A stretch of 64,000 nucleotides of DNA from Bacteroidales bacterium (GTDB lineage: Bacteria > Bacteroidota > Bacteroidia > Bacteroidales > UBA12077), in NCBI GenBank assembly GCA_013138975.1, contig WTBR01000065.1, positions 43,750 to 107,749 of the forward strand, given 5' to 3'. Positions within the stretch are counted from its first letter, which is position 1. Each line of letters begins with the position of its first letter. Below, piece after piece: positions 46,701-64,000 of this stretch. Below the pieces are notes generated by a model. The model saw nothing but the letters and a program-made list of their open reading frames with translations. It did not search any database and was not told the DNA's origin. The position numbers and the translations under genes were made by a program.

Positions 46701-48274
46701 AACATAAACACAACATTTTTATTGGTATTTTTAGTAAGCTTGCTTTTTATTTTTAATTTATTATCAATATTTTCTATACCTTCTTTGATATCACTACAAA
46801 CAAACATTTTTCTATGAAAAAAATGTTTTCTACCTATTTGCAATGTATAAGCAATATCTGCAAAGTTAATGTCGGAATTCTTTACCAGATATTCTTTTAA
46901 GTTCTGAATGTTATTTTCTAAAGCTGTTTTTGTTTTTCCTGAGATTAATAAAATTTTACAATCTCTACTTATTATCGAAGACTTTATTTGTGGAGGCTCT
47001 TCTAATATTGCATGAGCATTTGTACCTCCAACTCCTAATGATGTTACTCCAGCTCTTAAAGGATACTTATCGTTTTTCCATTCTTTAGTTTCAGTATTAA
47101 CATAAAACGGACTATTATCAATATCAATTTTGGGATTAGGATTCTTAAAATGTAAACTTGGGACTAGTGTTTTATTATTTAAACACAATACCGTTTTTAT
47201 AAATCCAATTACACCCGCGGCTGCATCAAGATGCCCAGCATTACTTTTTACAGAACCTATTGCACAAGAATTTCGAATATCTAAATTGAATGCTGATTTT
47301 AATCCTTCAACTTCAACAGGATCACCTAAACTTGTAGCGGTGCCATGACATTCTACATAGCTAATACTTTCGAAATCTACTTCAGCCATTTGCATTGCAG
47401 TTCGTATTACTTCAGCTTGTCCTTCAATACTTGGAGCAGTAAACCCTACTTTTCTATTACCATCATTATTTATTGCAGTTCCTTTTACTATAGCATAAAT
47501 GTTGTCACCATCATCAAGAGCGTCTTGTAATCTTTTTAATACTACAATACCAATCCCATTTCCTATAACTGTACCACCAGCTTTTTCATCGAAAGATCGA
47601 TTATGTCCATCGGGAGAGTTTATCATTCCTTTCTTATAAGTATATCCCATTTTTTCAGGGTTGAAAGTTACCCCCCCAGCTAATGCAATATCACATTGAC
47701 CTGACAAGATTCCTAAGCAAGCCGAATTTATAGCAACCAATGAGGTTGAACATGCTGTATATATGGTTACGGCCGGCCCTCTAAGATTTAATTTATAAGC
47801 TATTCTTGTAGCTAGATTATCTTTATCAATTACCTGAGAATTTTCCCAAGTATATTGACCTTTTATATAATTAGATGCTTCCCAATTAAATTTCCCCGAA
47901 GCCCCAGCAAATACTCCAATAGATCCTTTAAATGTATCAGGTATACAACCAGCATCCTCTAATGCCTTCCATGCATGTTCATGAAAAAGACGCAATTGAG
48001 GATCCATAACTTCGACCTCGTTAGGAGCATAACCAAAGAAATTTGAGTCAAAGCATTCACTATCATGTAGATAACCTATAGCTTTAATATAATTAGGATT
48101 TTTTATTTCATTCTCACTGATTCCTGCTTCCAATAATTCATTATCATTAAAGAAAGTAATCAACTCTTTTCCTTTTTTCAAATTATTCCAAAAAGTCTCA
48201 ATATCCTTAGATTGTGGGAATTTTCCAGACATTCCTATTACTGCTATTTCCAAACCATTATAATTCTCTTCCAT
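43748..48274 (-). CDS. Type I PKS module, 1508 aa: KS-AT-KR-carrier
   Basis: KS has TACSTS (Cys175, nt 47750..47752), ECHGTATSLGDP and SNAGHLD. AT has FSGQGSQ, GHSFGE (Ser618, nt 46421..46423) and RAGHS. KR has YIITGGLGGIGLDIA and ..GAYACSN. The carrier has FFELGGNSLKA (Ser1463). Confidence 0.97.
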   Translation of the reverse strand: MEENYNGLEIAVIGMSGKFPQSKDIETFWNNLKKGKELITFFNDNELLEAGISENEIKNPNYIKAIGYLHDSECFDSNFFGYAPNEVEVMDPQLRLFHEHAWKALEDAGCIPDTFKGSIGVFAGASGKFNWEASNYIKGQYTWENSQVIDKDNLATRIAYKLNLRGPAVTIYTACSTSLVAINSACLGILSGQCDIALAGGVTFNPEKMGYTYKKGMINSPDGHNRSFDEKAGGTVIGNGIGIVVLKRLQDALDDGDNIYAIVKGTAINNDGNRKVGFTAPSIEGQAEVIRTAMQMAEVDFESISYVECHGTATSLGDPVEVEGLKSAFNLDIRNSCAIGSVKSNAGHLDAAAGVIGFIKTVLCLNNKTLVPSLHFKNPNPKIDIDNSPFYVNTETKEWKNDKYPLRAGVTSLGVGGTNAHAILEEPPQIKSSIISRDCKILLISGKTKTALENNIQNLKEYLVKNSDINFADIAYTLQIGRKHFFHRKMFVCSDIKEGIENIDNKLKIKSKLTKNTNKNVVFMFSGQGSQYVNMGRGLYEKESCFKESIDKCSEIIKKRLGFDIREILFAADDSKSQNESKINQVLYTQPIKFVFEYSLAKLLINIGIKPDYMIGHSFGEIGVACLSGVFSLEDALEVVALRSELMESVDPGLMMSVNMTEEKIYEYISKYSDISLAAINGQDLCIVSGKVKDIEEFEQVVTKDGFDTLMLKVPRAGHSNMMIPIMEKFRQRISQMKLNEPKIPYISGLSGDWIKNEEATSDRYWSRHLRETIKFSKGISNLLKKGDTVFVQLGSDKGLVSFVELNEKVRNSDSAINLIKHKKELIDDNEYFANQIGELWLNGVEIDWVKYYAGEIRHKVSLPSYEFDKHKFESKVNIEKLISQKLQNSEYAPKERRRMSEWFYAPSWEQAVLLKKDKNVIISEKLLIFCNASKLCKDVIKNLKENNHEITEVWLDLNYEILDKNKYSIKANCIDDLICLKNEFIQKDTSFNKVLHFWNFGEISGNKDENNIHDIEIDKGYRTIINIVKELLDFLSQNSQIVSVTSGACNINDEETLCPERGMIGTLLKVIGQEIPGIDTKIIDVEYPCFKEKLQLSNIINEIFTKSKERVIAYRYGKRLAESYRSINIEIKEKSNLLKTGGVYIITGGLGGIGLDIAEYLGKVYKAKVILLGRSQFPSRNEWDNWINEKGLDDSISKKILVIKEIELEGGTVRTYNLNVSDKKKLEFVFNESKKEFGFINGVFHFAGVINSNYFVPVTKLTEEINKEHFNPKLYGLMALRQIIKKHSIDFCFVTSSVSSILGGLGFGAYACSNIYMNGVINNDLRNGSIPWINVDLDGWFSSRDKKDANELSEKYVLTAEGTKLIENILSLKECGLGYVVQSISDLNDRLEKWVVNLTKENTELKSESESEIQLYSRPELSNEFVEPKTEMEVKITEIWNMFFRYEKIGIMDDFFELGGNSLKAMRLFSILHKEFGVRIGVKEIFKRPTIALLVEYLNNNMEEIII

Positions 48275-48276
48275 GA

Positions 48277-51200
48277 TTAACGTCTTGTTTTTTTTAATAA
48301 AATTTTCATTGATTCCTTACCTTTATTGATTTCTTCAGTTCTATTATTTTTAGAAACATCAAAATCACTAACACCTTCAATGTAATTAGCTAATTTTCTA
48401 ATAGATGTATTTCTAAATAAGTCCATAATATTTAATTTATAACCTGTTGAATTTGTTATCTTCTGAACTACTTTTATCATAAACAATGAATGACCACCTA
48501 GCTCAAAGAAATTAGCGTCAATTCCTATTTTTTCTTTTTCAATTCCTAAAACTTCAGACCAAACTTCCACAAACTTCTCTTCGATTTTATTTGTTGGTGC
48601 CTCATAATCGTCTCCCACTTTTACTTCTGGCCAGGGTAAATCTTTCTTATCTACTTTTCCATTTCCAGTTAATGGAATAGATTCTAACTCTACAAAATAA
48701 GCAGGTATCATGTAAGCAGGAAGTTCTCTAAATAGGTAATCTTTAATCTGATCAGTATTTAGTTTCTTATTATATAATACTATATATGAACATATTGATT
48801 TTTCTCCTTCCTTATCAAGTGCAATAGTCACACATTCTTTTATATCAGGATGTTTTAATAAGCAATTTTCAATTTCCTTAAGTTCAACTCTATATCCACG
48901 AATTTTTATTTGTTCATCTATTCTATCAATAAATTCCAAATTTCCATCGCATAGAAATTTTGCAAGATCTCCTGTTTTATATAATTTTTTCTCATTTAAT
49001 ATCGAATTTTCAACAAATTTCTCATCGGTTAAATCTTGATTACCAATATATCCCCTTGCAAGACTATCTCCTCCAATATATAATTCGCCACATACACCTT
49101 TTGGAACGGGATTACAATCTTCATCTAAAAGATAAATTCGAGAATTAGCCGCTGGGATTCCAATTGGAACTGCCTTATTCAAACTTTCTGATTTCTTATA
49201 TTGATAAGTCATACAACCAACAGTTGCTTCAGTTGGGCCGTATTCATTAAAAATCTCTATTTTGCCTCTGTATTTATCTAAAATTTCATTAGCCAATTTG
49301 GTTTCCAATTGTTCTCCACCAACAATAAATCTTTTAACATTAGACACATCCGAAGGAATTATACTCGAATCATCCCTGATTAGTTTTAAATGTGATGGGG
49401 TTAATTTTATTACTCCTGACTTATTATCATTCAATACCTTATTTAATAAAATCTCATTAGGTATATCGGAATATACAACAACTGCATTCCCGGATATCAA
49501 TGGGGTAAAGATTGAAGTTACAGTTAAATCAAAGGAAACGGATGTATAAAAAGGGAAATTTACTGTTTCATTTCCAACATAAACTTTTTTAGCCCACCAG
49601 ATATAATTTACAAGACTTCTATTTTCTATCATTACTCCCTTAGGCTTGCCCGTTGTACCAGAAGTATATATAATATAAGCTAAACATCCTGAATCATAAT
49701 TTATATTAATATTATTTTGGTCTTCATTAAGATTCCAAATTTCTTCAATTTTAATTATTTTCTCAATATCGATATTTAAAAATAATTGCTCTCTGTCATA
49801 ATCAGAAATATTCGAATCTAAAACGACCAATTTAGAATTACTATTCTCAATAATATATTTTTTTCTTTCTAATGGAAGATTTAAATCTATTGGAAGATAA
49901 GCTCCTCCGGCTTTTAAAACAGCTAATAAAGTAATTATCGTTTTTTCTGAACGCGAAATTAAAATTGCAACTACATCATTTGAACCTATTCCTTTCTGAA
50001 TAAACTGAACAGCTAAGGAATTAACCTTTTTCATTAAATCCTGGTAATTCATACTCTCTTCACCAAAAATTAATGCTTTAGCCAGTGGTGTTATGGAAGC
50101 TTGATTTTCTATTAATTCAATAATAGTTTTATCTTTTGGATAGCTTTCTACTGTTTTATTAAAATCAATTAGGGTTTCCTGCTTTTCTTGTTTTACTAAA
50201 ATATCAAATTCAGAAATCTTAATATCAGAATTTGCACATAACTGCTTAACTATTGATTTAAAATAGATTATAAATCTATCAATGGTCTCAGATTTAAAAA
50301 GTTTGGTACAATATTCCAAGTTCATCAACAATTGATCTCCAAAATCAAAGGCTGTCAAATTCAGGTCAAATTTTGATGTGCCTGTAAAATGTTCATTTGT
50401 AATGCTTTTTAATTCCCCTGCAAATTCATCATGATTCAATAAATTAAACATTACATCAAAAAGAGGATTTCGGCTTATATCACGCTCTAGAGATAATTTA
50501 TCAATCAAATCCTCGAATTGACATTCCTGATTATCAAAAGCTTCTAATGCATTATTTTTTACATTGATAATAAAATCAGACAATCGCTCATTCTTTTTTA
50601 ATTCATTTCTTAAAGCCAGTGTATTTACAAACATTCCAATTATTCCCTCCAAGTCTGAATGGCGTCTTGAAGCTACAGGAGTACCAATGATTATATCTTT
50701 ACTTCCACTTAATTTTGACAGCATAATATTGAATACTGCCAACAAAACCATAAAAAGTGTTGCATCATTTTCTTTTGCAATACTTTTTATAGCTGAAGTT
50801 TCTTTTTGAGTCAAAACATAATATACGGATGCTCCACTATGACTTTGCAATGAGGGTCTGTTATAATCATATGGTAATTCCAGTTTAGGTATTTCACCAG
50901 AATATTTTTCAACCCAAAAACTCTCTTGCGCTTTTATATTTTCTTTTTGGGTTTCGCTATTTTGCCATTCTGAAAAATCTTTATATTGTAATGGAATTGA
51001 TGGTAACTCAATTCCTTGTGACAATTGACTAAACTCTTTTTTTAGTATAACATGAGAAACTCCATCACTTATTATATGGTGCATATCATATAAAAGAAAA
51101 TTTCTACCTCCTTCAGTCTCAAACATTTCAACTCTAAGTAAAGGAGCTTTAGATAAATCAAATACTTTTACAAATCCCTTTCTTGCATTTCCAATTTCTT

Positions 51201-54200
51201 CATCTTTTATTTTAGTAAGCTTCACGTTAAACTTAACCTGATCATGTATCTTTTGAACTGGTTGTTCATCTATTATTTCAAAACTAGTTCTGAAACTTTC
51301 ATGACGTTCTATAAGCCTATCTATAACTTGAGTTATTTTTTCCTTATTTATTTCTTGCGATAACTCAATAACACCCGGTAAATTATAAGCAATACTATCT
51401 TTGTTTAATTGTTGAAGAAAATATATCCTTTTTTGAGCTGAAGATAAGTTATAATATGATTTCTCAGGAGCTTTTGAAATAGTTAAGAAACTTTCCTTAG
51501 ACGAAGATTGTATCCTATCTGATAATTTTTTTATTGTTTGATATTGGAATACTTCAATTAATCTTAATTTTACTTCAAATTTTTTATGAATTTTCGATAT
51601 TAATAAAGTCGCTCTTAAAGAGTGTCCTCCTAAAGTAAAGAAGTTATCTTCTATTCCAATTTGATTTGCATCAATGTTTAGTATTTCTGACCAAATTTCC
51701 GTTAAGCATTTTTCAAGCTCATTTGTTGGAGGAGCATAGTCTTCTCCCGCTTCAATTTTTGGAACTGGTAATGCCTTTCTATTTATTTTTCCATTTGGTG
51801 TTAGCGGAATAAAATCCAATTCTATGAAAAATAAAGGGATCATATAGTCAGGTAGAGTTTTTGACAGGTGATCTCTAATTGACTTTATAAGTTCTTGTTT
51901 TCTTAAACCAGCAACAAAATAAGCACAAATAAATTTTTCTCCCTTATCATCTTCGCGATCTATAACAACTACTTGTTTTACTTGTTTTAGTTCAAGAATA
52001 CAGTTTTCAATTTCATTAAGTTCGATTCTAAAACCTCTAATTTTAACTTGATGATCTATACGTCTTAGAAATTCAATATTTCCACTTTTATGGTGTCGTA
52101 CCATATCACCGGTTTTAAATATTTTTGAATCAGACAACTTATTTTCTACAAATTTCTCATGAGTAAGTTCCGGCTGGTTTAAATATCCTCTTGACAAACC
52201 ATCACCTGAAACACATAATTCCCCGGATATGCCCATTGGAACAGGGGTTCCTTGATCATCTAAAATAAAAGTTTTTAGATTAGATAATGGTTTCCCAATA
52301 AACATTGGTAAACCGTTATTTACATAAATCTTATTACTGCTACTATTTTCTTTTAATAATAACTCTTTTATTTTTTCGAGTTCTATGGTTGAATTGTTTT
52401 CATCAAAAAGTTCATTTGCTATTTCCATTTGATTTTCCAGAACCCTAAATATATCCTGATATGTTGTTAATGGATTCGACAAAACTACTCTAAGTACTAC
52501 AACATCTATTTCTTTTGCGTATTTTGTATGGGTAAGTGTTGTTTTTGAAACAAAAGTTTCACCTTTGTAAAATTGATGATTTTGTAATTTTAAATTTACT
52601 TCATTAATTTCATTCTGATATTTATTTAAATCATTTTTATTAGCAATCATATCCCTGAATTTTTCAGGAATATATCGATAACAAACAATGTTTAACTGAG
52701 GTTTCATAATGAGTTCAAAGCAATCCAAAGTTTCTATTAGCTTAGATAAAAATACAGATGAATTAATTCCTTGCTCAATTAAGGATGCATATCCCTTTTT
52801 TCCAATAAGATGAAGAGAAGCATGCAAACTCATAGAAATTGCTGATCTTGAACCTTCAATTGTAAATCGCCCTGTATCAAATGAATTATTAGTAGCTTGA
52901 TAATTAGCAGTAACAGAACCGTACTGCAATAATTTCGGGTCTTTAAATAAACAAACACTTATGCCTTGTGGCAAATAAAGTTGTTTATGACCACAGAATG
53001 TAATTGAATCTGAAAGCTCTATACCATTTAATCTGTTGGCAAATTTCTCTGAAAACATAGTTGCTCCACCCCAAGCGGCATCCACATGAAAATGGATATT
53101 AAACTCTTTGGCAAGCTCTCCCATTTCCACTAATGGATCTATTTCTCCTGTTTCTGTTGTACCTGCTATTGCAACTATTGCAATAATTAACTTCTTACTT
53201 TTATTGCATTCAATAATAATAGATCTAAGGTTATCAATATCTAACTTCCCATCTTTATTGTAATCAGCATAAATAATATTATCGGTTCCCATTCCAAGAA
53301 TCGACGCTGATTTCTTTATGGAATAATGCATTAACCTTGATCCAATAATTACCATATCATCATAGCCATGTTTCTCTAATGCTTTATAAATACTGTGTTG
53401 CATTACAGTATTATTTTCATCTAATGCAAGCAATTTTTTATTTCTTGCTGCAAGCATTGCGGAAATGTTGGATGTAGTACCCCCGGTTGAAACTATTCCC
53501 AAGTTTGTATTAACTGTTTGTATATATTCAGAATAAAATTCATCATTAAATGAATAAAATAAACGATGAAGTATAGCAAGTGCCTCCCTTTCAACAAATG
53601 TTAAGGATTTTGAAGTTTCTATTTTTACCAAATTTTGATTTAGTTGGGAAATCAGTTTACTAAAATCATTTACAAAATCGGGTAATGCAGAGGTCATATG
53701 ACCTATATTCTGTGGCGCTGCTGAATTAATAACAAATGGTAATATGTCTTTATAAAGGATCTTGTTATATTCATCTAAGGATATTGGATAATCTGGGGCT
53801 GTACTTTTCTTAAACCTATTTGCTATTGAATCCAAACTAACATTTGGCATTGTAATAGCTCCAGGTTTTAAAATATCTATGGCTGGATTTATATGAATAT
53901 TCTTAAAATATTTATGAACATCCTCAATATAAAACCTTGTTACTTCGTGATATGTTGCATCTGCACTAACTTCAGATGAACCATAAACATTTATTAGTTT
54001 TGAATTTGTAAATTCTTTATAAAACTCTTCTGCTAAATCTAAATTTAAAGCTTCGCCACTACAAAATACATATTTTAAACTTTTTAAGATCTCCCTATTC
54101 TGCTTTATTGAAATAATTGTCTTTAAGAAAGAAGGAACTAATACAGTTCTAGTAATCTTATATTTATCTAATAAATCGATAAATATTTCGATGTCTTTTG

Positions 54201-57200
54201 TGTTTTCTTCGGAGAATATATAGAGTGGATCTTTATTAAGTAGTGATGAAAATATTTCTGCCACATGATCAACAAAACTTACTGACGTTTTTTGACAAGA
54301 TCTTTCTCCATCTCCAATTGGATAAGTATTCCACAACCAGTATAGCCTGTTGATAATACCTTTACTTTTCCCCATCACTCCTTTTGGGTTACCTGTAGAT
54401 CCTGATGTATAAATTATATATGTTATGTCATCCGGTAATATTTTAATTTTTAAATTATTTACTGTTTCCTTTTTTATCTCTTTGTCATGATTCTCTGGAC
54501 AAATCACATTAGCTTTTATATTAGAAAACAGCGATTTATAAATATCCTTGGTTATTAATATTTCTGCATTGCTTTCTTTTAGCATAAAATTTAACCGATC
54601 GGATGGGTAGTTCGGATCTAAAGGAATATAAATGCCTCCGGTTTTAATAATTGCTAACATTCCAACGATCATGTCAATGGAACGTTTTTCGCAAATTGCT
54701 ATTAATGTTTGAGGTTTTACACCATTTCTAACCAAATAACCGGCCATTTGATTTGCCCTTTTGTTCAACTCAAAATTTGTAATTTGATTATCGCCTTCAA
54801 TTAAAGCAATTCGGTCTCCATTTATCTTTACTTGTTCTTCAAATAATTGTTTTATACTTTTTTCTACTGGATACTCCATTTTAGTATCATTAAAATCAAA
54901 TAGTATTTTCTTTCTTTCATCTAATGATAATAGATCAATTTCCAATATCTTATTGCTCTTTTTAGATGATAACTGCTGAACTATTTGTCTAAAGTATCTT
55001 ATGTATTGCTCTATTGTTTGAGGTTTAAATAATTTTGTGCAATACTCAAACCCTAATAGAATTTGATCACCATAATCAAATGCTGTTAGGGTAAGATCAA
55101 ATTTCGAAATACCATTTTTATGGTTAAATTCTTCGTAATCTAACGCTGAAAGGTCTCCTGAAAACTCTTTCATATTAAACATATTGAACATTACATCAAA
55201 TACCGGATTACGACTTGTATCTCTTTCTACAGATAACTTCTCAACTAAATCTTCGAATTGATATTCCTGATTATCAAAAGATAATAAAGTATTCTGCTTA
55301 ACCTCTTGCAGGAACTCCTTAACGGTTTTAAAAGATGAAGGATAATTTCTTAATGGCAAAGTATTAATGAACATACCTACAATTCCTTCTAAATCCGAAT
55401 GAAGACGAGAAGCTATAGGAGTGCCAATAACAATATCATCCTGACCACTTAATTTTGATAATAAAATATTATATATAGATAAAAGAGCCATAAAAAGGGT
55501 GGAATCACCTTCCTTTGCAATGCTTCTAACCATTTTTGTCTCCTCTTTACTCAATACAAATGATGCAAATGCTCCCTTTGTACTTTGAATTGGAGGTCTT
55601 GAATAGTCAGTTGGTAAATTTAAAATAGGGAGTTCATCTGAAAATTGATTAATCCAAAAATGTTCTTTTTCTTTTATACTATTTTGCTGATCTTCACTAT
55701 TTTGCCATTCACAGAAATCTTTGTATTGTAAAGTCAAAGGTTCAAGTTCTTCTCCTTCCATTAATTTCAAGAAATCTTGTTTTAGTATTTCGTTTGATGT
55801 TCCATCACTTATTATATGATGAAGATCAAACATTAAAACGGGATTACTATTTTCTATATTTACAATCTCAACTCTTAATAATGGTGCTTTACCCAGATCA
55901 AAAGGGCGCACAAAGCTTTCTCTTTGTGCTTGCAATTCAGACTCCACAATTGTACTCTCTTGTATTTCAAAAAATACATCTTTTTGTATTTGTTGGATAG
56001 GCACGTCATTTATTATCATAAAACATGTTTGAAAGCTTTCATGTCTTAGCACCAAGGTTTTAAATGCTGTCGCTACTTCCTCTTTCTTAAAATTCTGATT
56101 TAAATTAATAATTCCCGGCATATTATAAGAGATACTTTCGGGGTTCAACAACTGCAAAAAATACATTGATTTTTGTGCAGATGATAAATTATAGTATTCT
56201 TTTATTTTTGCTTTAGGAATTGAATTAAATTCCTTTTTATTACTAGTTTGAACCCTTTTTGCTTGATCTTTAATTGTTGAAAGCAAAAACATATCTCTCA
56301 AAATAAACTCAACTCCGAATTCCTTATGTATTTTCCCTGCTAAAATAGAAGCTTTAAGCGAATGCCCTCCAATATTAAAGAAGTTTGCGTTTATACTTAT
56401 TTCTGATGAAGAGATGTTTAAAACCTTAGCCCAAATAGTTGTTAATTTTTTTTCAATATCATTTGAGGGAGCAATATATTGATCGCCAGCGTTTATTTTT
56501 GGTATAGGTAATTTCTTTCTATCTATCTTCCCATTTGCTGTTAGTGGTATTGCATCTACATTTATAAAAAAAGAAGGTATCATATATTCGGGCAAGTGAA
56601 ACATTAAAGTTTCTTTTATTGACTCTATTATTTCATTCTCTCCATTTATAACAAGGTATGCACACAGGTATTTCTCTTTATTAGTATCTTCTCTTACAAT
56701 AACTACGCATTCTTTTACTTCATTATTTTTTAATATACTGTTTTCAATTTCTCCAATTTCAATCCTATATCCCCTAATTTTAACTTGATTATCAATTCTT
56801 CCGATAAACTCTAACTCCCCATTGGATAACCATCGAGCCAAATCACCTGTTTTGTATAAAGTCTCTCCCTCTATAAACGGGTCGCTTATAAATTTCTCAT
56901 GAGTTAGTTGATCATTTGCAAAATAGCCTTTCCCAACTCCATCTCCGGATATACACAGTTCGCCTGCAATACCTATAGCTTGCATTTTATTATCTTCATT
57001 TAAAATATAGATATTTGTGTTTCCAATCGGTTTTCCAATATTCAAAACATCTTTATTATCTAATTTTTTTATAGCTGACCAAATTGTTGTTTCAGTTGGC
57101 CCATACATATTATATAATAATCCAGGGAAAAACTCTTTAACTGTTTGATATAAACCAAAAGGAAATTCTTCTCCTCCAACTAAAAGTTTACCAATCTTTG

Positions 57201-59502
57201 CTAAATCTTTTCTTCCTTCTGCTTCTTCAATAATTAATTTTAACCTCGAAGGTGTTAGTTGTAATATATTTACTTTATGTTTTTCAATTAATTTAGAAAT
57301 TAATCTCGGTTCTGTTTGTTCTTCATTATTCCCTAGCACCATTTTAGCACCACTTAACAATGGTACAAACAGTTCCAGTCCAAAAATATCGAAAGCGACT
57401 GTGGTTAATGATAGTAATGTGTCAGTTTGTTTTGTTTGTATTAGTTCGAACATTGAAAATACAAAATTCACAACATTCTGATTATCTATCATTACCCCTT
57501 TTGGTTCTCCTGTTGATCCTGACGTGTATATTACATATGCAAGGTTTTCTTTGTTAGTTTTTATGGATTCAAATACTGTTTCTTCAAAATTTATATCCTT
57601 TAAAATATCAATTTGTGTTGCTTTAATATTTTCACTTCTTTTATTATTTACTAACACATATTCTATTTCACTTTTCTCAATAATTAACTGGTTTCTTTCT
57701 TCAGGATATAAAGGATCCATTGGTAAATATGCTGCTCCGGCTTTCAAGATTCCCAATATCCCTATTATCATTTCAATACTTCTATCGATCATTAAACCAA
57801 TCAATTGTCCTGACTCCACTCCTCTTTTAGTCAACTCTATAGCTACACTATTTGATAGTTCATCTAACTCCAAAAATGTTTTACTTTCATTATTAAAAAT
57901 TAATGCTGTTGCTACCGGAAGTTTTATTACATTTTCTTTAAAAAGCTGAATTATGGTTTTATCCTTAGGGTAGTTGGTTTTAGTTTTATTAAACTCAAAT
58001 AAAATATGGTTTTTTTCTTCCTTCGTGATAATTGATAAATCTGAAAGTTTTCTATCAAAATCACCATTTAAGTTTTGTACAATAATTTTAAAATATGCAA
58101 TAAATCTTTCTATAGTTTTAGGGCTAAACAATTTTGTACAATACTCAAAGTTCAATAATATCTGATCTCCACAATCTACGGCTATAAGATGTAAATCTAA
58201 TTTGGCTACATGTTCTGTATGTATAAATTCTCTTTCCAACTTAGATAAATCTTCTTTATGATCGCTTATATTATTTAAATTAAATGAAACATCAAATATT
58301 GGATTTCTGCTTGTATCTCTGTAATGGATTACTTTCTCTACTAAATCTTCAAATTGGAAGTCTTGATTTTCAAATGCTTGTAATGCTGCAGATTTAACTT
58401 CATCAAAGAATTCTAATAATGTTTTTTCCTTATTAGGAAAACTCCTGAATGGCAAGGTATTTATAAATACACCAACAATCTCATCTAAATCAGAATGTCT
58501 CCTACCTGCAAGCGGTACTCCGACAATGATATCATTTTGCCCACTTATTTTTGACAGTAATATTTTAAACGCCGACAATAGCGCCATAAATAAAGTAACA
58601 TCATACTTTGAGACTATTTTTCTCAAAATATTCGTTTCATCAACAGTTAAAGCAATCTTTACAGAAGCTCCTTCTGTTGATTGATACACCGAACGTGGAT
58701 AATCAGTTGGTAAATCAAGAATTGGTAATTCATCTGAGAATCTATTTACCCAATATTTCTTTTGACTTTTTATATTATCTTGTTGTTCTTTACTATTTTG
58801 CCATTCTGAAAAATCTTTGTATTGTAATTTTAATGGTATTAGTTCTTTCCCTTTTATTAAATCAAAAAAATCATGTGTTAATATCTTAAAAGAAGTTCCA
58901 TCGCTAATAATGTGGTGCATATCAAGCATTAAAACAGACTCATCTTCCTTTCTAACCAACTGAACTCTAAACAAGGGTGCCTCACTAAAAATGAATGGCT
59001 TAACAAATTGCTTCAATACAATTTCTAAATCATTTTCAGCAATTTCTTTTTCATGTATTTTAAATGTAACTTTTTCATGTACTTGTTGCACCGGGTGATC
59101 ATCAATAATTTTAAAGCTTGTACGAAAATTTTCATGTCGGTCAATCAGTTTTTCGAAAGCATCCCTTAATCTGTCGATATCCTCATTTCTTGATAAAGGA
59201 ATCAAATGTTGCACATTATATACCATACTTTCCGGATTCATCTGTTGAAGGAGAAACATTCGTTTCTGGGCGGATGATAATGGATAATATTCTTTATAAT
59301 CTGCTTTTGTTATTGTTATAAACTTATCTTTATTATCAATTCCTGATAAGTATTTTAATAGTTCGCTCTTATTCTGTTTAATTTCCTCAATAATATCTTT
59401 TGGAATTTTTCCTTGGGATGATTGAATTTTGAGCTTATTATTATCTACTATTACCTTAATATTTAGTTTATAAAGTTTTGACAATAAATCTTTTATTTTC
59501 AT
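48277..59502 (-). CDS. NRPS, 3741 aa: docking-C-A(Gly-like)-T-C-A(interrupted by a PLP decarboxylase domain; beta-Ala-like code)-T-C-A(Asn-like)-T
   Basis: Three HHIISDG C domains (aa 196-202, 1228-1234, 2808-2814). Three A domains with cores at aa ~659-668, 1698-1708 and 3279-3288. Three GGHSL carriers (Ser1048, 2628, 3672). It is a single uninterrupted ORF. Confidence 0.97.
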   Translation of the reverse strand: MKIKDLLSKLYKLNIKVIVDNNKLKIQSSQGKIPKDIIEEIKQNKSELLKYLSGIDNKDKFITITKADYKEYYPLSSAQKRMFLLQQMNPESMVYNVQHLIPLSRNEDIDRLRDAFEKLIDRHENFRTSFKIIDDHPVQQVHEKVTFKIHEKEIAENDLEIVLKQFVKPFIFSEAPLFRVQLVRKEDESVLMLDMHHIISDGTSFKILTHDFFDLIKGKELIPLKLQYKDFSEWQNSKEQQDNIKSQKKYWVNRFSDELPILDLPTDYPRSVYQSTEGASVKIALTVDETNILRKIVSKYDVTLFMALLSAFKILLSKISGQNDIIVGVPLAGRRHSDLDEIVGVFINTLPFRSFPNKEKTLLEFFDEVKSAALQAFENQDFQFEDLVEKVIHYRDTSRNPIFDVSFNLNNISDHKEDLSKLEREFIHTEHVAKLDLHLIAVDCGDQILLNFEYCTKLFSPKTIERFIAYFKIIVQNLNGDFDRKLSDLSIITKEEKNHILFEFNKTKTNYPKDKTIIQLFKENVIKLPVATALIFNNESKTFLELDELSNSVAIELTKRGVESGQLIGLMIDRSIEMIIGILGILKAGAAYLPMDPLYPEERNQLIIEKSEIEYVLVNNKRSENIKATQIDILKDINFEETVFESIKTNKENLAYVIYTSGSTGEPKGVMIDNQNVVNFVFSMFELIQTKQTDTLLSLTTVAFDIFGLELFVPLLSGAKMVLGNNEEQTEPRLISKLIEKHKVNILQLTPSRLKLIIEEAEGRKDLAKIGKLLVGGEEFPFGLYQTVKEFFPGLLYNMYGPTETTIWSAIKKLDNKDVLNIGKPIGNTNIYILNEDNKMQAIGIAGELCISGDGVGKGYFANDQLTHEKFISDPFIEGETLYKTGDLARWLSNGELEFIGRIDNQVKIRGYRIEIGEIENSILKNNEVKECVVIVREDTNKEKYLCAYLVINGENEIIESIKETLMFHLPEYMIPSFFINVDAIPLTANGKIDRKKLPIPKINAGDQYIAPSNDIEKKLTTIWAKVLNISSSEISINANFFNIGGHSLKASILAGKIHKEFGVEFILRDMFLLSTIKDQAKRVQTSNKKEFNSIPKAKIKEYYNLSSAQKSMYFLQLLNPESISYNMPGIINLNQNFKKEEVATAFKTLVLRHESFQTCFMIINDVPIQQIQKDVFFEIQESTIVESELQAQRESFVRPFDLGKAPLLRVEIVNIENSNPVLMFDLHHIISDGTSNEILKQDFLKLMEGEELEPLTLQYKDFCEWQNSEDQQNSIKEKEHFWINQFSDELPILNLPTDYSRPPIQSTKGAFASFVLSKEETKMVRSIAKEGDSTLFMALLSIYNILLSKLSGQDDIVIGTPIASRLHSDLEGIVGMFINTLPLRNYPSSFKTVKEFLQEVKQNTLLSFDNQEYQFEDLVEKLSVERDTSRNPVFDVMFNMFNMKEFSGDLSALDYEEFNHKNGISKFDLTLTAFDYGDQILLGFEYCTKLFKPQTIEQYIRYFRQIVQQLSSKKSNKILEIDLLSLDERKKILFDFNDTKMEYPVEKSIKQLFEEQVKINGDRIALIEGDNQITNFELNKRANQMAGYLVRNGVKPQTLIAICEKRSIDMIVGMLAIIKTGGIYIPLDPNYPSDRLNFMLKESNAEILITKDIYKSLFSNIKANVICPENHDKEIKKETVNNLKIKILPDDITYIIYTSGSTGNPKGVMGKSKGIINRLYWLWNTYPIGDGERSCQKTSVSFVDHVAEIFSSLLNKDPLYIFSEENTKDIEIFIDLLDKYKITRTVLVPSFLKTIISIKQNREILKSLKYVFCSGEALNLDLAEEFYKEFTNSKLINVYGSSEVSADATYHEVTRFYIEDVHKYFKNIHINPAIDILKPGAITMPNVSLDSIANRFKKSTAPDYPISLDEYNKILYKDILPFVINSAAPQNIGHMTSALPDFVNDFSKLISQLNQNLVKIETSKSLTFVEREALAILHRLFYSFNDEFYSEYIQTVNTNLGIVSTGGTTSNISAMLAARNKKLLALDENNTVMQHSIYKALEKHGYDDMVIIGSRLMHYSIKKSASILGMGTDNIIYADYNKDGKLDIDNLRSIIIECNKSKKLIIAIVAIAGTTETGEIDPLVEMGELAKEFNIHFHVDAAWGGATMFSEKFANRLNGIELSDSITFCGHKQLYLPQGISVCLFKDPKLLQYGSVTANYQATNNSFDTGRFTIEGSRSAISMSLHASLHLIGKKGYASLIEQGINSSVFLSKLIETLDCFELIMKPQLNIVCYRYIPEKFRDMIANKNDLNKYQNEINEVNLKLQNHQFYKGETFVSKTTLTHTKYAKEIDVVVLRVVLSNPLTTYQDIFRVLENQMEIANELFDENNSTIELEKIKELLLKENSSSNKIYVNNGLPMFIGKPLSNLKTFILDDQGTPVPMGISGELCVSGDGLSRGYLNQPELTHEKFVENKLSDSKIFKTGDMVRHHKSGNIEFLRRIDHQVKIRGFRIELNEIENCILELKQVKQVVVIDREDDKGEKFICAYFVAGLRKQELIKSIRDHLSKTLPDYMIPLFFIELDFIPLTPNGKINRKALPVPKIEAGEDYAPPTNELEKCLTEIWSEILNIDANQIGIEDNFFTLGGHSLRATLLISKIHKKFEVKLRLIEVFQYQTIKKLSDRIQSSSKESFLTISKAPEKSYYNLSSAQKRIYFLQQLNKDSIAYNLPGVIELSQEINKEKITQVIDRLIERHESFRTSFEIIDEQPVQKIHDQVKFNVKLTKIKDEEIGNARKGFVKVFDLSKAPLLRVEMFETEGGRNFLLYDMHHIISDGVSHVILKKEFSQLSQGIELPSIPLQYKDFSEWQNSETQKENIKAQESFWVEKYSGEIPKLELPYDYNRPSLQSHSGASVYYVLTQKETSAIKSIAKENDATLFMVLLAVFNIMLSKLSGSKDIIIGTPVASRRHSDLEGIIGMFVNTLALRNELKKNERLSDFIINVKNNALEAFDNQECQFEDLIDKLSLERDISRNPLFDVMFNLLNHDEFAGELKSITNEHFTGTSKFDLNLTAFDFGDQLLMNLEYCTKLFKSETIDRFIIYFKSIVKQLCANSDIKISEFDILVKQEKQETLIDFNKTVESYPKDKTIIELIENQASITPLAKALIFGEESMNYQDLMKKVNSLAVQFIQKGIGSNDVVAILISRSEKTIITLLAVLKAGGAYLPIDLNLPLERKKYIIENSNSKLVVLDSNISDYDREQLFLNIDIEKIIKIEEIWNLNEDQNNININYDSGCLAYIIYTSGTTGKPKGVMIENRSLVNYIWWAKKVYVGNETVNFPFYTSVSFDLTVTSIFTPLISGNAVVVYSDIPNEILLNKVLNDNKSGVIKLTPSHLKLIRDDSSIIPSDVSNVKRFIVGGEQLETKLANEILDKYRGKIEIFNEYGPTEATVGCMTYQYKKSESLNKAVPIGIPAANSRIYLLDEDCNPVPKGVCGELYIGGDSLARGYIGNQDLTDEKFVENSILNEKKLYKTGDLAKFLCDGNLEFIDRIDEQIKIRGYRVELKEIENCLLKHPDIKECVTIALDKEGEKSICSYIVLYNKKLNTDQIKDYLFRELPAYMIPAYFVELESIPLTGNGKVDKKDLPWPEVKVGDDYEAPTNKIEEKFVEVWSEVLGIEKEKIGIDANFFELGGHSLFMIKVVQKITNSTGYKLNIMDLFRNTSIRKLANYIEGVSDFDVSKNNRTEEINKGKESMKILLKKTRR
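52309..53940 (-). other. Group II PLP-dependent amino-acid decarboxylase-like domain nested in the second A domain (aa ~1855-2398)
   Basis: Motifs are STGGTTSNISAMLAARN (aa 2005-2021), HVDAAWGG (nt 53065..53088) and SITFCGHK (Lys2173 codon at nt 52984..52986). It is flanked by A5 (NVYGSSE, nt ~53971..53991) and by IGKP / A6 GELCVSGD (nt 52201..52224). Confidence 0.8.
59338..59502 (-). other. TubC-N-like N-terminal docking domain (3741-aa NRPS)
   Basis: IKDLLSKLYKLNIKVIVDNNKLKIQSSQGKIPKDIIEEIKQNKSELLKYL shows the same pattern as the N-terminus of the 2365-aa NRPS. Confidence 0.65.
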
Positions 59503-62884: not shown

Positions 62885-64000
62885 TTAAAATTCAAAATCA
62901 ACATCCTGTTGATCAAAAGGGGAACTAACTTCTGTCATTCTACTCATTAAATTAATATCATTTATCTTAACTGCATTACTATTTACAATTTGTTTAAAAT
63001 ATAATATAAATTGTTCTATTGTTTCAGGTTTAAATAATTTTGTACTATATACAAAACTTAACATTAATTGATCTCCATAATCAACAGTAGATAAGGTTAA
63101 ATCAAATTTGGAAGTTCCAGCATTATGAATCAAACATTGATTGTTAAAGTTTGATAAATCACCACTATATTCGTCCTGATTTAAAACATTAAACACAACA
63201 TTAAATATTGGATTATGACTAATGTTACGTTCTACAGATACTTGCTCTACTAAATCCTCAAACTGATAATCTTGATGCTCAAATGCTTCAAGGGTATTTT
63301 GTTTTAATTTACGTAAATACTCTTTTAAAGTATCGCTTCCTTTTACTTCATTCCGCATTACCAAAGTATTTATAAATAGTCCTACTATATTCTCCAAATC
63401 AACATGACTTCGACCTGCTATAGGTGTTCCTACAATTACATCCTCTTGACCTGTCAATTTGGAAAGGAGTATTGTGAAAACAGATAAAACTGACATGTAA
63501 AGAGTTAATTCATTTTCTTTTGTCAGTAATTTTATAATTTTTGTTTCTTCTTTACTTAATGTAAAACTAACAATGGCACCATCAAAGCTTTTCTTATCAG
63601 GACGAGTATAATCTGTAGGTAACTCTAATGCAGGAATTTCACCTTTAAATCTATTGATCCAATATTGTTCTTGTTTTTTTACTTTAACCTTCTGTTCTTC
63701 ACTGTCCTGCCATTCACTAAAGTCTTTATATTGCAACTCTAAGGGAGGTAAATCTTCACCTAAATACAGTTTCTGGAATTCTTGTTTTAAAATTACGCGT
63801 GAGACTCCATCACTTATAATATGATGCATATCTACCATTAACAAACTATCTTTTCCTTTGATTTCAACTATGGCTACTCGTAAAAGAGGTGCTTGAGTTA
63901 AATCAAAAACTTGTGTGAATTTGTTAAGGGTAGTTTGTTTTTCTGTTTCTTCAATCTTAAAGTTTTCAACTTTAAAATCTACATGATCATGTATGATCTG
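62885..64000 (-). CDS. NRPS, 5'-partial (continues beyond the right window edge); the visible part is a complete C domain followed directly by a stop
   Basis: The reading frame is open from 64000. The tracked TTG at 63844 is internal (..APLLRVAIVEIKGKDSLLMVDMHHIISDG..). The C domain is highly similar to the other C domains here and ends ..KINDINLMSRMTEVSSPFDQQDVDFEF*. Confidence 0.93.
   Translation of the reverse strand, partial: QIIHDHVDFKVENFKIEETEKQTTLNKFTQVFDLTQAPLLRVAIVEIKGKDSLLMVDMHHIISDGVSRVILKQEFQKLYLGEDLPPLELQYKDFSEWQDSEEQKVKVKKQEQYWINRFKGEIPALELPTDYTRPDKKSFDGAIVSFTLSKEETKIIKLLTKENELTLYMSVLSVFTILLSKLTGQEDVIVGTPIAGRSHVDLENIVGLFINTLVMRNEVKGSDTLKEYLRKLKQNTLEAFEHQDYQFEDLVEQVSVERNISHNPIFNVVFNVLNQDEYSGDLSNFNNQCLIHNAGTSKFDLTLSTVDYGDQLMLSFVYSTKLFKPETIEQFILYFKQIVNSNAVKINDINLMSRMTEVSSPFDQQDVDFEF

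What the first reader, a model, noticed from the sequence alone, without database searches (positions are those of the whole stretch)
52309..53940. PLP-dependent (group II) decarboxylase domain nested inside an NRPS adenylation domain, between core motifs A5 and A6
In the 3741-aa NRPS (48277..59502, minus strand) the second A domain starts normally. Its A3 core YTSGSTGNPKG is aa 1698-1708 (nt 54379..54411) and its A5 core NVYGSSE is aa 1838-1844.

The next A-domain landmarks resume only about 550 aa later: FIGKP at aa 2401-2405 and the A6 core GELCVSGDGLSRGY at aa 2427-2440, followed by FKTGD, RIDHQVKIRGFRIEL and NGKINRK. The other five A domains in this window have only about 15-25 aa between these same landmarks.

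The inserted ~540 aa carry three hallmark motifs of fold-type I group II amino-acid decarboxylases (the GAD/CSAD/DABA-decarboxylase type):
- STGGTTSNISAMLAARN (aa 2005-2021)
- HVDAAWGG (aa 2139-2146, nt 53065..53088)
- S-I-T-F-C-G-H-K, which fits the S-x-x5-K pyridoxal-phosphate attachment signature (Lys2173, nt 52984..52986)

The ORF is continuous, with no stop or frameshift, so this is a true nested domain and it looks catalytically competent.

The interrupted A domains I know of carry methyltransferase, ketoreductase, oxidase or monooxygenase inserts, mostly between A8/A9 or A2/A3. I am not aware of a described decarboxylase insert or of an A5/A6 insertion site.
Basis: partly seen in the sequence, partly recalled or inferred. 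Interest (0 to 1): 0.95.

Follow-up and report, generated by a model that had tools for sequence, protein, structure and literature searches.

The report
Aspartate-type decarboxylase nested in NRPS adenylation domain
One amino-acid-activating domain of a large peptide-assembly enzyme has a complete vitamin-B6-dependent decarboxylase spliced into a surface loop, most likely so that it makes its own beta-alanine building block from aspartate; the feature is real and widespread, but the same arrangement was already noted in the jamaicamide enzyme JamL, so it is a new example rather than a new kind.

Summary
ORF 48277..59502 (-) is continuous (3741 aa) and identical to GenBank NOQ25906.1 from a Bacteroidales MAG. 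In module 2, 557 aa separate motif A5 from 'IGKP'; the other A domains have 17-21 aa. The insert (aa 1855-2400) is a complete group II PLP decarboxylase: PF00282 at E 2e-50, far above aminotransferase or desulfurase models. Its best named match is PanP, the PLP-dependent aspartate 1-decarboxylase (496 bits, below the 606 cut-off). An AlphaFold model (pLDDT 89) shows both folds intact.

The host A domain has the code VDAVFSVADK. Its nearest uninterrupted relatives carry VDWV[IV]SLADK, which I recall as the beta-alanine code. The most likely function is Asp to beta-Ala inside the module, followed by adenylation and loading.

The novelty claim fails. A 2013 survey (PMC3870968) lists JamL of the jamaicamide pathway as 'A-Pyridoxal_deC-A-CP', citing the 2004 cluster paper. 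I also found the same insertion in 16 species-representative genomes across five phyla and in 9 protein-cluster representatives.

Open points:
- No biochemistry was found in the searchable literature.
- The insert belongs to an NRPS-associated sister subfamily of PanP.
- Free versus carrier-tethered decarboxylation is undecided.

It is a new member of a known but uncharacterised kind.

The parts
48277..59502 (-). NRPS gene, 3741 aa: TubC_N docking domain, then C-A-T, C-A(DC)-T, C-A-T
   Evidence: Identical to NOQ25906.1.
53938..54870 (-). N-terminal part of the module-2 A domain (aa 1545-1855; motifs A1-A5 plus the strand VSADATYHEV)
   Evidence: Motifs. Pfam and NCBIfam split hits. In the AF2 model, strands run up to model residue 310.
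54256..54276 (-). A4 motif FVDHVAE (aa 1743-1749). The acidic residue is shifted to PheA position 236, and His occupies position 237.
53758..53937 (-). Linker 1 (aa 1856-1915). Variable in sequence and length among homologues. It includes the start of the N-terminal helical segment of the decarboxylase.
   Evidence: 14-40% identity among homologues. Model pLDDT is 62-64 around model residues 320-340.
52408..53757 (-). PLP-dependent group II decarboxylase core (aa 1916-2365), PanP-like, 'CSF' subtype
   Evidence: PF00282 E 2.3e-50. TIGR03799 496 bits. Foldseek match to 4rj0/4rit with TMt 0.83. Subfamily split.
52984..52986 (-). Codon of Lys2173, the predicted PLP Schiff-base lysine (motif FCGHKQ)
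   Evidence: Invariant in nested and standalone relatives. Aligned to the PLP-lysine motif of GAD65 and the Sphaerobacter decarboxylase.
52303..52407 (-). Linker 2 (aa 2366-2400), poorly conserved and predicted to be disordered
   Evidence: 0-28% identity among homologues. pLDDT below 50 at model residues 846-852.
51733..52302 (-). C-terminal part of the module-2 A domain (aa 2401-2590; FIGKP and motifs A6-A10)
51511..51705 (-). Module-2 thiolation (carrier) domain, aa 2600-2664
   Evidence: PF00550 best stretch at aa 2600-2664.
43748..48274 (-). Downstream PKS module (KS-AT-KR-ACP) of the same assembly line
36654..43751 (-). Terminal NRPS (TubC_N, C-A-T-C-A-T-TE)
59799..62396 (-). Upstream NRPS subunit (partial C, then A and T; Asn-like code DLSKIGEVGK)

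Best explanation
Module 2 of this hybrid NRPS-PKS carries a 'self-supplying' A domain. A complete PanP-like, PLP-dependent group II decarboxylase of about 546 aa is spliced into the surface loop between the strand after motif A5 and the 'PIGKP' turn before A6.

Proposed sequence of events:
1. The insert removes the alpha-carboxylate of free L-aspartate, using Lys2173 as the PLP Schiff base and Tyr2201 as the loop proton donor. The product is beta-alanine.
2. The host A domain has a beta-amino-acid-type pocket (VDAVFSVADK). It adenylates that beta-alanine and loads it on the module's T domain.
3. The C domain adds it to the chain. From the other A-domain codes, the local order would be ...Gly-like, beta-Ala, Asn-like, then one ketide.

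Because fold-type I PLP enzymes build their active sites across a dimer interface, the insert probably dimerises the synthetase at this module.

Shown here: the architecture, the folds, the catalytic residues, the type of pocket, and recurrence in other genomes. Inferred: Asp as the substrate, action on the free amino acid, and dimerisation.
For: **The insert is a complete decarboxylase.**
- PF00282 at E 2e-50.
- TIGR03799 PanP at 496 bits, covering profile positions 43-522 of 522. The next family, DABA decarboxylase, scores only 148 bits.
- 79 of 82 columns that are near-invariant in both nested domains and Vibrio/Marinobacter/Shewanella PanPs carry the same residue.
- V. fischeri PanP is an experimentally supported aspartate decarboxylase (PMC10102598).

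**Both folds are intact.**
- AF2 model: pLDDT 89.2, pTM 0.77.
- The A domain superposes on uninterrupted A domains across the insert (4d4i, TMt 0.91).
- The insert superposes on the Sphaerobacter decarboxylase (TMt 0.83).

**The host A domain looks like a beta-Ala domain.**
- Its code is VDAVFSVADK.
- Its closest uninterrupted relatives, at about 45% identity, mostly carry VDWV[IV]SLADK. I recall this as the canonical beta-Ala code.
- Nested homologues P0323 and P0357 keep xxWVISIADK.
- None of the ten code positions is basic, so nothing there would hold an extra carboxylate.
- The host is a canonical modular A domain, not VinN-type.

**Comparative evidence.**
- The decarboxylase is conserved (36-60% identity) while the linkers are not (0-40%), which implies selection on the insert.
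- P0359 and L011 each carry an additional uninterrupted FVDH-type A domain next to the nested one. This fits a diffusible product.
- No other beta-Ala supply gene is present in the window.

**Precedent.** JamL has the same layout. From my own recollection, not checked here, jamaicamide contains a beta-Ala unit that was labelled by fed beta-alanine.
Against: - The insert is not a PanP equivalog. Its score is below NCBIfam's cut-off (496 versus 606).
- All nested domains carry Cys/Ser/Phe at three columns where every named PanP has Asp/Gly/Arg.
- Standalone members of this 'CSF' subtype occur in contexts that suggest other substrates. One sits next to a Lys/Orn N-monooxygenase and acetyltransferases. 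Another sits next to an NRPS without a VD-type pocket.
- I could not anchor the assignment of VDWV[IV]SLADK to beta-alanine in any paper held by the tools.
- The window's code differs from that consensus at positions 239, 299 and 322.
- Nested hosts carry a lineage-specific His at position 237 whose role is unknown.
- Proven precedents exist for decarboxylating Asp only after it is tethered to a carrier.
- No biochemical data on any nested decarboxylase were found.
Confidence: 0.6

Rival explanations
1. On-line (thiotemplated) decarboxylation. The host A domain activates L-aspartate at its side-chain carboxylate and loads it on the T domain. The nested decarboxylase then removes the free alpha-carboxylate from Asp-S-T in cis, giving beta-alanyl-S-T. 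This would be a fused, convergent version of the VinN/VinL/VinO, AfcQ/AfcK/AfcP or CtaD/CtaE/CtaF logic.
For: - Experimentally proven precedents in which Asp or 3-MeAsp must be carrier-bound before PLP decarboxylation, and free Asp is not a substrate: closthioamide (PMC7183216), AFC-BC11 (PMC12186527) and vicenistatin (PMC11284099).
- From my own knowledge, the other known A-domain inserts (methyltransferase, ketoreductase, oxidase) act on T-tethered substrates.
- Nested hosts share a lineage-specific His at pocket-shell position 237.
- Most have lost Trp239.
- Nested decarboxylases replace a PanP-invariant Arg by Phe. This would be compatible with a masked distal carboxylate.
Against: - The host A domain is not VinN-like. 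VinN-type enzymes are absent from the 60 best solved-structure matches, while canonical NRPS A domains score 345-380 bits.
- Its ten-residue code is that of the uninterrupted VDWV[IV]SLADK clade and contains no basic residue.
- P0323 and P0357 keep Trp239.
- CtaF belongs to a different PLP family, Orn/DAP/Arg. I know of no group II decarboxylase shown to act on a carrier-bound substrate.
- Phe2311 aligns with a Met in a C-terminal-domain helix of GAD65, not with a known substrate contact.
Confidence: 0.2
2. The nested decarboxylase works on another dicarboxylic amino acid, such as 3-methylaspartate, 3-hydroxyaspartate or glutamate. The module would then incorporate a substituted beta-amino acid or a gamma-amino acid rather than beta-alanine.
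For: - The insert is in the 'CSF' sister subfamily, not in PanP proper.
- Standalone CSF members sit in varied contexts.
- The window's code has Ala239, Phe299 and Val322 instead of Trp, Ile/Val and Leu, so the pocket shape differs.
- Position 239 varies among nested hosts (Ala, Val or Trp).
Against: - No glutamate mutase, hydroxylase or other precursor-tailoring gene lies in the window.
- The overall code pattern V-D-x-V-x-S-x-A-D-K is kept.
- Of the families tested, PanP is by far the closest (496 versus 148 bits).
- The only product-linked homologue, JamL, goes with a plain beta-Ala unit (my own recollection).
Confidence: 0.1
3. The insert no longer catalyses anything. It serves as a structural or dimerisation element, and the A domain takes beta-alanine from the cellular pool.
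For: No activity has been shown for any nested decarboxylase. [quoted passage not shown] Eroded, fragmented copies of such genes exist in cyanobacteria.
Against: - The PLP lysine, the pyridine-N Asp, the stacking His, the loop Tyr and about 79 PanP-family invariant positions are all retained in every nested homologue across five phyla.
- The decarboxylase is often more conserved than the host A domain.
Confidence: 0.05

Closest known systems
JamL of the jamaicamide pathway (Lyngbya/Moorena; UniProt Q6E7J8; Edwards et al. 2004; surveyed in PMC3870968)
   Same: A Pyridoxal_deC (PF00282) domain lies inside an NRPS A domain and is followed by a carrier domain ('A-PLP4-A-CP'). It is part of a hybrid PKS/NRPS line. 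Cyanobacterial homologues of the window's domain share the same junctions.
   Different: - JamL is a PKS-NRPS fusion (KS-AT-ER-KR-CP-C-A(DC)-CP). Here the module sits inside a three-module NRPS from a Bacteroidales MAG, and the PKS follows one module later.
- I could not obtain the JamL sequence, so identity, exact insertion point and the His237/'CSF' signatures were not compared.
PanP, PLP-dependent aspartate 1-decarboxylase (TIGR03799; V. fischeri PanP)
   Same: The fold and nearly the full length are shared (profile positions 43-522 of 522), as are the catalytic residues. 79 of 82 jointly invariant columns are identical. Identity to Vibrio, Marinobacter and Shewanella PanPs is 38-42%.
   Different: - PanP is a standalone primary-metabolism enzyme for pantothenate synthesis.
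- The insert scores below the curated cut-off.
- The insert belongs to a sister subtype with Cys/Ser/Phe instead of Asp/Gly/Arg at three coupled positions.
- The insert lacks the first ~42 residues of the profile.
Interrupted A domains with methyltransferase, ketoreductase or oxidase inserts (e.g. TioS, ColG, PchF, CesA/B)
   Same: One catalytic domain is spliced into an A domain that keeps all of its core motifs, giving a bifunctional unit.
   Different: This insert lies between A5 and A6 in the A-core. It probably acts before adenylation, and it belongs to an obligately dimeric fold.
Thiotemplated Asp-to-beta-Ala systems: VinN/VinL/VinO, AfcQ/AfcK/AfcP, CtaD/CtaE/CtaF
   Same: An activating enzyme, a carrier and a PLP decarboxylase together deliver a beta-alanine-type unit made from aspartate.
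   Different: - Those are separate proteins.
- The activating enzyme is VinN-type or an ATP-grasp enzyme.
- CtaF belongs to the Orn/DAP/Arg decarboxylase family.
- Decarboxylation there is proven to occur on the carrier.
- Here the A domain is a canonical NRPS type with a beta-Ala-like pocket, and the decarboxylase is group II.
In-trans precursor decarboxylases of NRPS pathways (e.g. the bacillamide decarboxylase; the standalone 'CSF' relative P0026 next to an NRPS)
   Same: A PLP decarboxylase is dedicated to preparing an NRPS substrate.
   Different: These are encoded as separate genes. The substrate and the way the product is used (for example as an amine for chain release) differ or are unknown.

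Membership tests
Interrupted (nested) adenylation domain | One continuous reading frame, with A-domain core motifs on both sides of a foreign domain | tested here: met
   A3, A4 and A5 lie upstream; A6, A7, A8 and A10 lie downstream. There is no stop codon. Pfam reports split PF00501 hits.
Interrupted (nested) adenylation domain | The host A domain still forms a complete A fold, and the insert forms its own complete fold | tested here: met
   AF2 pLDDT 89.2. Foldseek: 4d4i TMt 0.91 across the insert, 4rj0 TMt 0.83 for the insert.
Interrupted (nested) adenylation domain | Both activities demonstrated | not testable with these tools
   This requires enzyme assays.
JamL-type A-(Pyridoxal_deC)-A-CP module | PF00282 lies between the two parts of PF00501 and is followed by PF00550 | tested here: met
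   compared with the layout given in PMC3870968.
JamL-type A-(Pyridoxal_deC)-A-CP module | Sequence homology and the same insertion point as JamL itself | not tested
   The JamL sequence was not retrievable. No Moorena locus appeared in the genome scan. Single-A-domain proteins fell below the top 150 of the census.
JamL-type A-(Pyridoxal_deC)-A-CP module | The module installs beta-alanine in the product | not testable with these tools
   The product of this cluster is unknown.
Group II PLP-dependent decarboxylase (PF00282) | Score above Pfam's gathering threshold and better than for other fold-type I families | tested here: met
   172 bits against a cut-off of 27. Aminotran_5 scores 35 bits and Beta_elim_lyase 29 bits.
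Group II PLP-dependent decarboxylase (PF00282) | PLP lysine, pyridine-N aspartate, stacking histidine and catalytic loop tyrosine | tested here: met
   K2173, D2141, H2059 and Y2201 are invariant. K2173 and D2141 align with the corresponding GAD65 motifs. Y2201 aligns with Tyr333 of the Sphaerobacter enzyme, the residue mutated in 4rj0/4riz.
PanP equivalog (NCBIfam TIGR03799) | Score at or above the curated cut-off of 606.1 bits | tested here: not met
   496.2 bits.
PanP equivalog (NCBIfam TIGR03799) | Residues invariant in named PanPs | tested here: inconclusive
   79 of 82 are shared. The Asp/Gly/Arg triad is replaced by Cys2170/Ser2182/Phe2311 in all nested domains.
Beta-alanine-activating NRPS A domain | Specificity code of the V-D-x-V-x-S-x-x-D-K type, with the acidic residue at position 236 rather than 235 | tested here: inconclusive
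   The code is VDAVFSVADK. The nearest relatives have VDWV[IV]SLADK. The link from that code to beta-Ala rests on my memory; no paper anchor was found.
VinN/VinO-type thiotemplated aspartate decarboxylation | VinN-type standalone adenylating enzyme | tested here: not met
   The host is a canonical in-line NRPS A domain. VinN-type structures are not among the 60 best PDB matches.
VinN/VinO-type thiotemplated aspartate decarboxylation | Decarboxylation occurs on the carrier-bound aspartyl thioester | not testable with these tools
   This requires mass spectrometry of the loaded T domain.

The most novel reading that the evidence does not exclude
The nested group II decarboxylase acts in cis on aspartate that the host A domain has thioesterified through its side-chain carboxylate to the module's own T domain. 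This would be the first fold-type I decarboxylase shown to work on a carrier-bound substrate. It would also be a one-polypeptide, convergent counterpart of the VinN/VinL/VinO logic. The lineage-specific His237 of the host and the Arg-to-Phe change of the insert would be its adaptations.
Probability: 0.2. Interest if true: 0.7.

Novelty: new member of a known kind. Interest (0 to 1): 0.4.

Why it matters
This is a built-in precursor supply: the module carries the enzyme that makes the non-proteinogenic building block it activates. That matters in four ways.

1. **Product prediction.** Such modules should be read as 'beta-Ala made from Asp'. Current annotation calls the protein only an 'amino acid adenylation domain-containing protein'.
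2. **Engineering.** It offers a portable beta-alanine module that does not depend on the host's pool.
3. **NRPS architecture.** An obligately dimeric fold sits inside an enzyme class usually regarded as monomeric, at an insertion site (A5/A6) different from those of the well-studied inserts.
4. **Scope.** The arrangement is more widespread than the two database entries known in 2013. I found 16 species genomes in Cyanobacteria, Bacteroidota, Fibrobacterota and Alpha-, Beta- and Gammaproteobacteria. They share markers (His237 in the host, Cys/Ser/Phe in the insert) that suggest a single origin followed by transfer between phyla.

In the literature I could search, no one has shown what the insert does, or whether it acts on free or tethered aspartate.

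Tried and rejected
**Alternative identities for the insert.**
- Another fold-type I family (aminotransferase class V, beta-eliminating lyase, cysteine desulfurase). Rejected: these score 25-40 bits against 172 (Pfam) and 496 (PanP).
- Assembly misjoin or frameshift. Rejected.

**Misleading 'standalone' relatives.** P0001, P0002 and P0006 looked like the closest free-living relatives. P0006 proved to be a fragment of an eroded, multiply interrupted NRPS gene. They are not free enzymes.

**Failed or weak analyses.**
- Alignment A1, made for structure prediction, put the N-halves of uninterrupted A domains onto the decarboxylase. I discarded it and rebuilt it with split halves (A2).
- The census with the whole didomain was dominated by giant multi-A-domain NRPSs, because scores add up. 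Only hits whose single stretch spans the whole query were usable.
- The neighbour-joining tree of decarboxylase domains did not give a clean nested clade. P0310, P0323 and P0357 sit on a long branch. I therefore do not claim monophyly from the tree; the shared signatures are the better argument.

**Literature searches that found nothing.**
- An anchor for the beta-Ala specificity code.
- The original jamaicamide paper and the 2015 review of interrupted A domains, neither of which is held.

**Arguments I considered and dropped.**
- Arg2338, the GAD 'FFRMVISNP' arginine, as evidence for a free distal carboxylate. The alignment is confirmed. However, from my own knowledge this Arg is also conserved in family members whose substrates lack a distal carboxylate, so I rejected it as diagnostic.
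- L023 as a nested case. It is a PanP-type gene placed after a T domain, not a nested domain.
Full report
**1. The observation**

The minus-strand ORF 48277..59502 is continuous and encodes 3741 aa. Pfam finds three C, three T and three A domains, but four AMP-binding stretches, plus PF00282 (Pyridoxal_deC) at aa 1917-2277.

The distance from A5 to the 'IGxP' turn is 557 aa in the second A domain. It is 17-21 aa in four other A domains of the window.

The protein is identical to GenBank NOQ25906.1, a 'MAG: Bacteroidales bacterium' entry on a 129,944-bp contig. There it is annotated only as 'amino acid adenylation domain-containing protein'. G+C content is flat at about 0.30 across the region. 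Together with the recurrence described in section 5, this excludes a frameshift or misjoin.

**2. What the insert is**

Scanned alone, the insert (aa 1845-2400) gives these scores:

| Model | Score |
|---|---|
| PF00282 | E 2.3e-50 (172 bits) |
| Aminotran_5 | 35 bits |
| Beta_elim_lyase | 29 bits |
| TIGR03799, PLP-dependent aspartate 1-decarboxylase PanP | 496 bits, profile positions 43-522 of 522 |
| DABA decarboxylase | 148 bits |
| MfnA | 126 bits |
| GAD | 44 bits |

The PanP score is below the curated cut-off of 606 bits.

PanP of Vibrio fischeri is cited as an aspartate decarboxylase (Pan et al. 2017) in PMC10102598. In that paper a distant homologue complemented an E. coli panD mutant.

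No PanP structure has been solved. The closest solved chains are 8zpi, the Sphaerobacter decarboxylase (4rj0/4rit) and GAD65/67. HMMER alignments to these place four residues on their counterparts:
- Lys2173 on the PLP lysine.
- Asp2141 on the HVDAAWGG aspartate.
- Tyr2201 on the loop tyrosine. This is Tyr333 of the Sphaerobacter enzyme, the residue mutated in 4rj0/4riz.
- Arg2338 on the arginine of the GAD 'FFRMVISNP' motif.

These residues and about 75 others are invariant in nested homologues and in standalone PanPs alike.

**3. Structure**

I built an alignment from nested homologues, PanP-like proteins and uninterrupted A domains split at the insertion point (A2). A first alignment had to be discarded.

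With A2, AlphaFold2 gave mean pLDDT 89.2 and pTM 0.77 for aa 1545-2590.
- A-core strands run to model residue 310 (aa 1854, 'VSADATYHEV').
- The insert begins with a helix at model residue 315.
- The A-core resumes at model residue 857 (aa 2401, 'FIGKP').
- Only part of linker 1 (pLDDT 62-64) and linker 2 (residues 846-852, below 50) are uncertain.

Foldseek superposes the split A domain on uninterrupted A domains across the insert (4d4i/4d56, TM normalised by target 0.91, about 1018 alignment columns). It superposes the insert on the Sphaerobacter decarboxylase (TMt 0.83).

The insert is therefore a complete domain that emerges from a loop and leaves the A fold whole. Unlike the statement in PMC3870968, which was based on the Coxiella protein, this insert keeps the N-terminal helical segment of the decarboxylase. 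Only about 42 profile residues are missing.

**4. The host A domain**

I aligned the window's A domains to the GrsA-PheA core. The PheA sequence was recalled from memory, and it reproduces the published code DAWTIAAICK.

| A domain | Code |
|---|---|
| Host (module 2) | VDAVFSVADK |
| Others in the window | DILQLGMIWK, DLTKIGEVGK, DLSKIGEVGK, DAWSLGNVVK |

By my recollection the first three of the other codes are Gly-like and Asn-like.

A search with the A domain after excising the insert found uninterrupted A domains at 40-47% identity. Most of them carry VDWVVSLADK (21), VDWVISLADK (13) or close variants. I recall this as the canonical beta-alanine code, with the amine-binding Asp shifted from position 235 to 236. 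I could not confirm that in the papers held by the tools.

The host is a canonical modular NRPS A domain. ApnA, TycA, McyA and PheA score 345-380 bits, and VinN-type enzymes are not among the 60 best solved matches.

**5. Recurrence**

- **Word-indexed protein search.** The insert retrieved ten fragments that combine PF00282 with PF00501. They are labelled Marivirga, Maribacter, Bacteroidota, Parabeggiatoa, Alphaproteobacteria and others, and they share the same junctions.
- **Closest 'standalone' hits.** These are pieces of eroded NRPS genes in cyanobacteria.
- **Exhaustive search of 1.84 billion cluster representatives.** Nine full-length proteins have one alignment stretch spanning A-N, the decarboxylase and A-C. 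They include the window's own protein, Cyanothece sp. BG0011 WP_107666519.1 and an Alteromonadaceae MAG protein.
- **Shared architecture.** All nine have the order A3, A4 (FVDH), A5, decarboxylase, A6-A10, T, with a homologous insertion point. Identity to the window is 36-60% for the decarboxylase, 36-52% for the A halves and 0-40% for the linkers.
- **Scan of one genome per GTDB species.** Sixteen loci cover the whole query: Acaryochloris, Richelia, Hyella patelloides, Scytonema, a cyanobacterial MAG, two Fibrobacterota MAGs, Chryseosolibacter histidini, Chitinophaga, Pedobacter, Parabeggiatoa, Massilia, Phenylobacterium, and Pseudoalteromonadaceae, Cellvibrionaceae and gammaproteobacterial MAGs.
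- **Other loci from that scan.** These are standalone PanP genes of Vibrio, Marinobacter, Shewanella and others. They match only the decarboxylase part, at 38-42% identity.

**6. Prior art**

PMC3870968 (Milano et al. 2013) surveyed fold-type I PLP domains in NRPS and PKS proteins. Under Pyridoxal_deC it lists Q6E7J8, Lyngbya majuscula, with the layout 'KS-AT-ADH-KR-CP-C-HxxPF-A-PLP4-A-CP'. [quoted passage not shown] 2004.

The 2004 paper and the 2015 review of interrupted A domains are not held by the tools. Full-text searches for later functional work found nothing. I could not obtain the JamL sequence for a direct comparison.

**7. New details**

*(a) A two-way split in the PanP-like family.* The family divides at three coupled columns.
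- Every NCBI-named PanP, and the Vibrio-type proteins, have Asp/Gly/Arg.
- Every nested domain has Cys2170/Ser2182/Phe2311. So do some standalone proteins that sit next to NRPS or siderophore-type genes.
- The insert is thus a sister subfamily of PanP, not the equivalog. Its substrate cannot simply be copied from PanP.

*(b) A marker in the host A domain.* Thirteen of 14 nested hosts have His at PheA position 237 (FVDH[VI]xE). In uninterrupted relatives, 91% have Ser there.

*(c) Co-occurring uninterrupted domains.* P0359 and the Chryseosolibacter locus L011 each contain an additional uninterrupted FVDH-type A domain beside the nested one.

The shared site and the shared signatures suggest one origin and later spread between phyla. 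My distance tree is not clean enough to prove it.

**8. Mechanism**

The final residue is most likely beta-alanine made from aspartate. Two routes are possible.

*Route 1 (preferred, about 0.6).* The insert decarboxylates free Asp, and the A domain activates the beta-Ala. Supporting points:
- The pocket is that of the uninterrupted beta-Ala-type clade. Two nested homologues keep xxWVISIADK.
- None of the ten code residues is basic, so none could hold a second carboxylate.
- The A domain is canonical, not VinN-type.
- From my own knowledge, group II decarboxylases act on free amino acids.
- A diffusible product explains the extra uninterrupted sibling domains.

*Route 2 (about 0.2).* The A domain loads Asp through its side-chain carboxylate, and the insert decarboxylates Asp-S-T. 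Supporting points:
- Solid precedents exist with separate proteins: CtaD/CtaE/CtaF, where free Asp is not a substrate; AfcQ/AfcK/AfcP; and VinN/VinL/VinO.
- It would give a role to His237 and to the Arg-to-Phe change.
- Against this, Phe2311 aligns with a helix residue of GAD65 that is not a known substrate contact.

*Smaller possibilities.* The substrate could be a different dicarboxylic amino acid (about 0.1). The domain could be inactive and purely structural (about 0.05). The second is disfavoured by the strict conservation of the catalytic residues.

**9. Context**

The assembly line reads as follows:
- An upstream subunit with a partial C domain, then A and T.
- The three-module NRPS.
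- A KS-AT-KR-ACP PKS.
- A C-A-T-C-A-T-TE NRPS.
- A MacB/FtsX-type permease.

No panD, panP, glutamate mutase or other PLP enzyme lies in the window.

**10. Verdict**

The feature is real and correctly recognised as a nested, apparently competent PLP decarboxylase between A5 and A6. It is not a new kind. It is a new member, from Bacteroidales, of the JamL-type 'A-decarboxylase-A' module. That module type is widespread but biochemically uncharacterised.

Interest is moderate (0.4). The open question worth an experiment is whether decarboxylation precedes or follows loading.

Noticed in passing
window 62885..64000 and 59799..62396 (-): An ORF that runs off the window end finishes at 62888 right after a C domain, with no A or T domain following it. 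The next ORF (865 aa) begins with only the C-terminal half of a C domain (profile positions 190-452), followed by A and T. This could be a split module, a frameshift or a pseudogenised junction at the head of the assembly line.
   Followed up: partly
L001 10001-12493; L003 9241-10914 (cyanobacterial contigs): An orthologous cyanobacterial NRPS/PKS cluster is broken into many short ORFs: the A-N half, the decarboxylase, AMP-binding_C, and KS, AT and KR pieces. It appears to be an eroded copy of a nested A(DC) assembly line. The database lists its decarboxylase piece as a standalone enzyme.
   Followed up: partly
P0359 aa 1782-2130 and 2857-3757; L011: Two proteins or loci carry both an uninterrupted and an interrupted A domain of the FVDH type. 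This suggests either duplication with loss or gain of the insert, or one decarboxylase serving two modules.
   Followed up: partly
L005 10001-11587 (P0018); L086 10001-11614 (P0026): Standalone members of the same 'CSF' decarboxylase subtype occur in two different settings. One sits beside a Lys/Orn N-monooxygenase and two acetyltransferases, which is a siderophore-like context. The other sits directly after an NRPS whose A domain reads FVATIWQ, with no Asp at position 235 or 236. The subtype may cover several substrates.
   Followed up: partly
L023 (Pyrinomonadaceae MAG): A PanP-type decarboxylase (DGHKQ lysine motif) follows directly after the A8-A10-T motifs of an NRPS. It is adjacent or fused C-terminally, not nested. 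This may be an independent way of coupling aspartate decarboxylation to an NRPS.
   Followed up: no
window 48277..59502 and 36654..43751 (-), N-termini: Both NRPS subunits start with a TubC_N-type docking domain (PF18563). This indicates ordered docking between subunits in this Bacteroidales cluster.
   Followed up: no
window 4208..5140 (-); L010, L019: A protein with the Fibrobacter succinogenes major domain lies in the window. Two of the nested homologues come from Fibrobacterota MAGs, at about 49% identity. The MAG itself is labelled Bacteroidales. Its taxonomic placement was not examined.
   Followed up: no
window 32190..32552 (-): A 120-aa ORF next to the cluster gives a weak hit to the eukaryotic CBF_beta family (30 bits, E 5e-7). 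This is probably spurious, but it was not explained.
   Followed up: no
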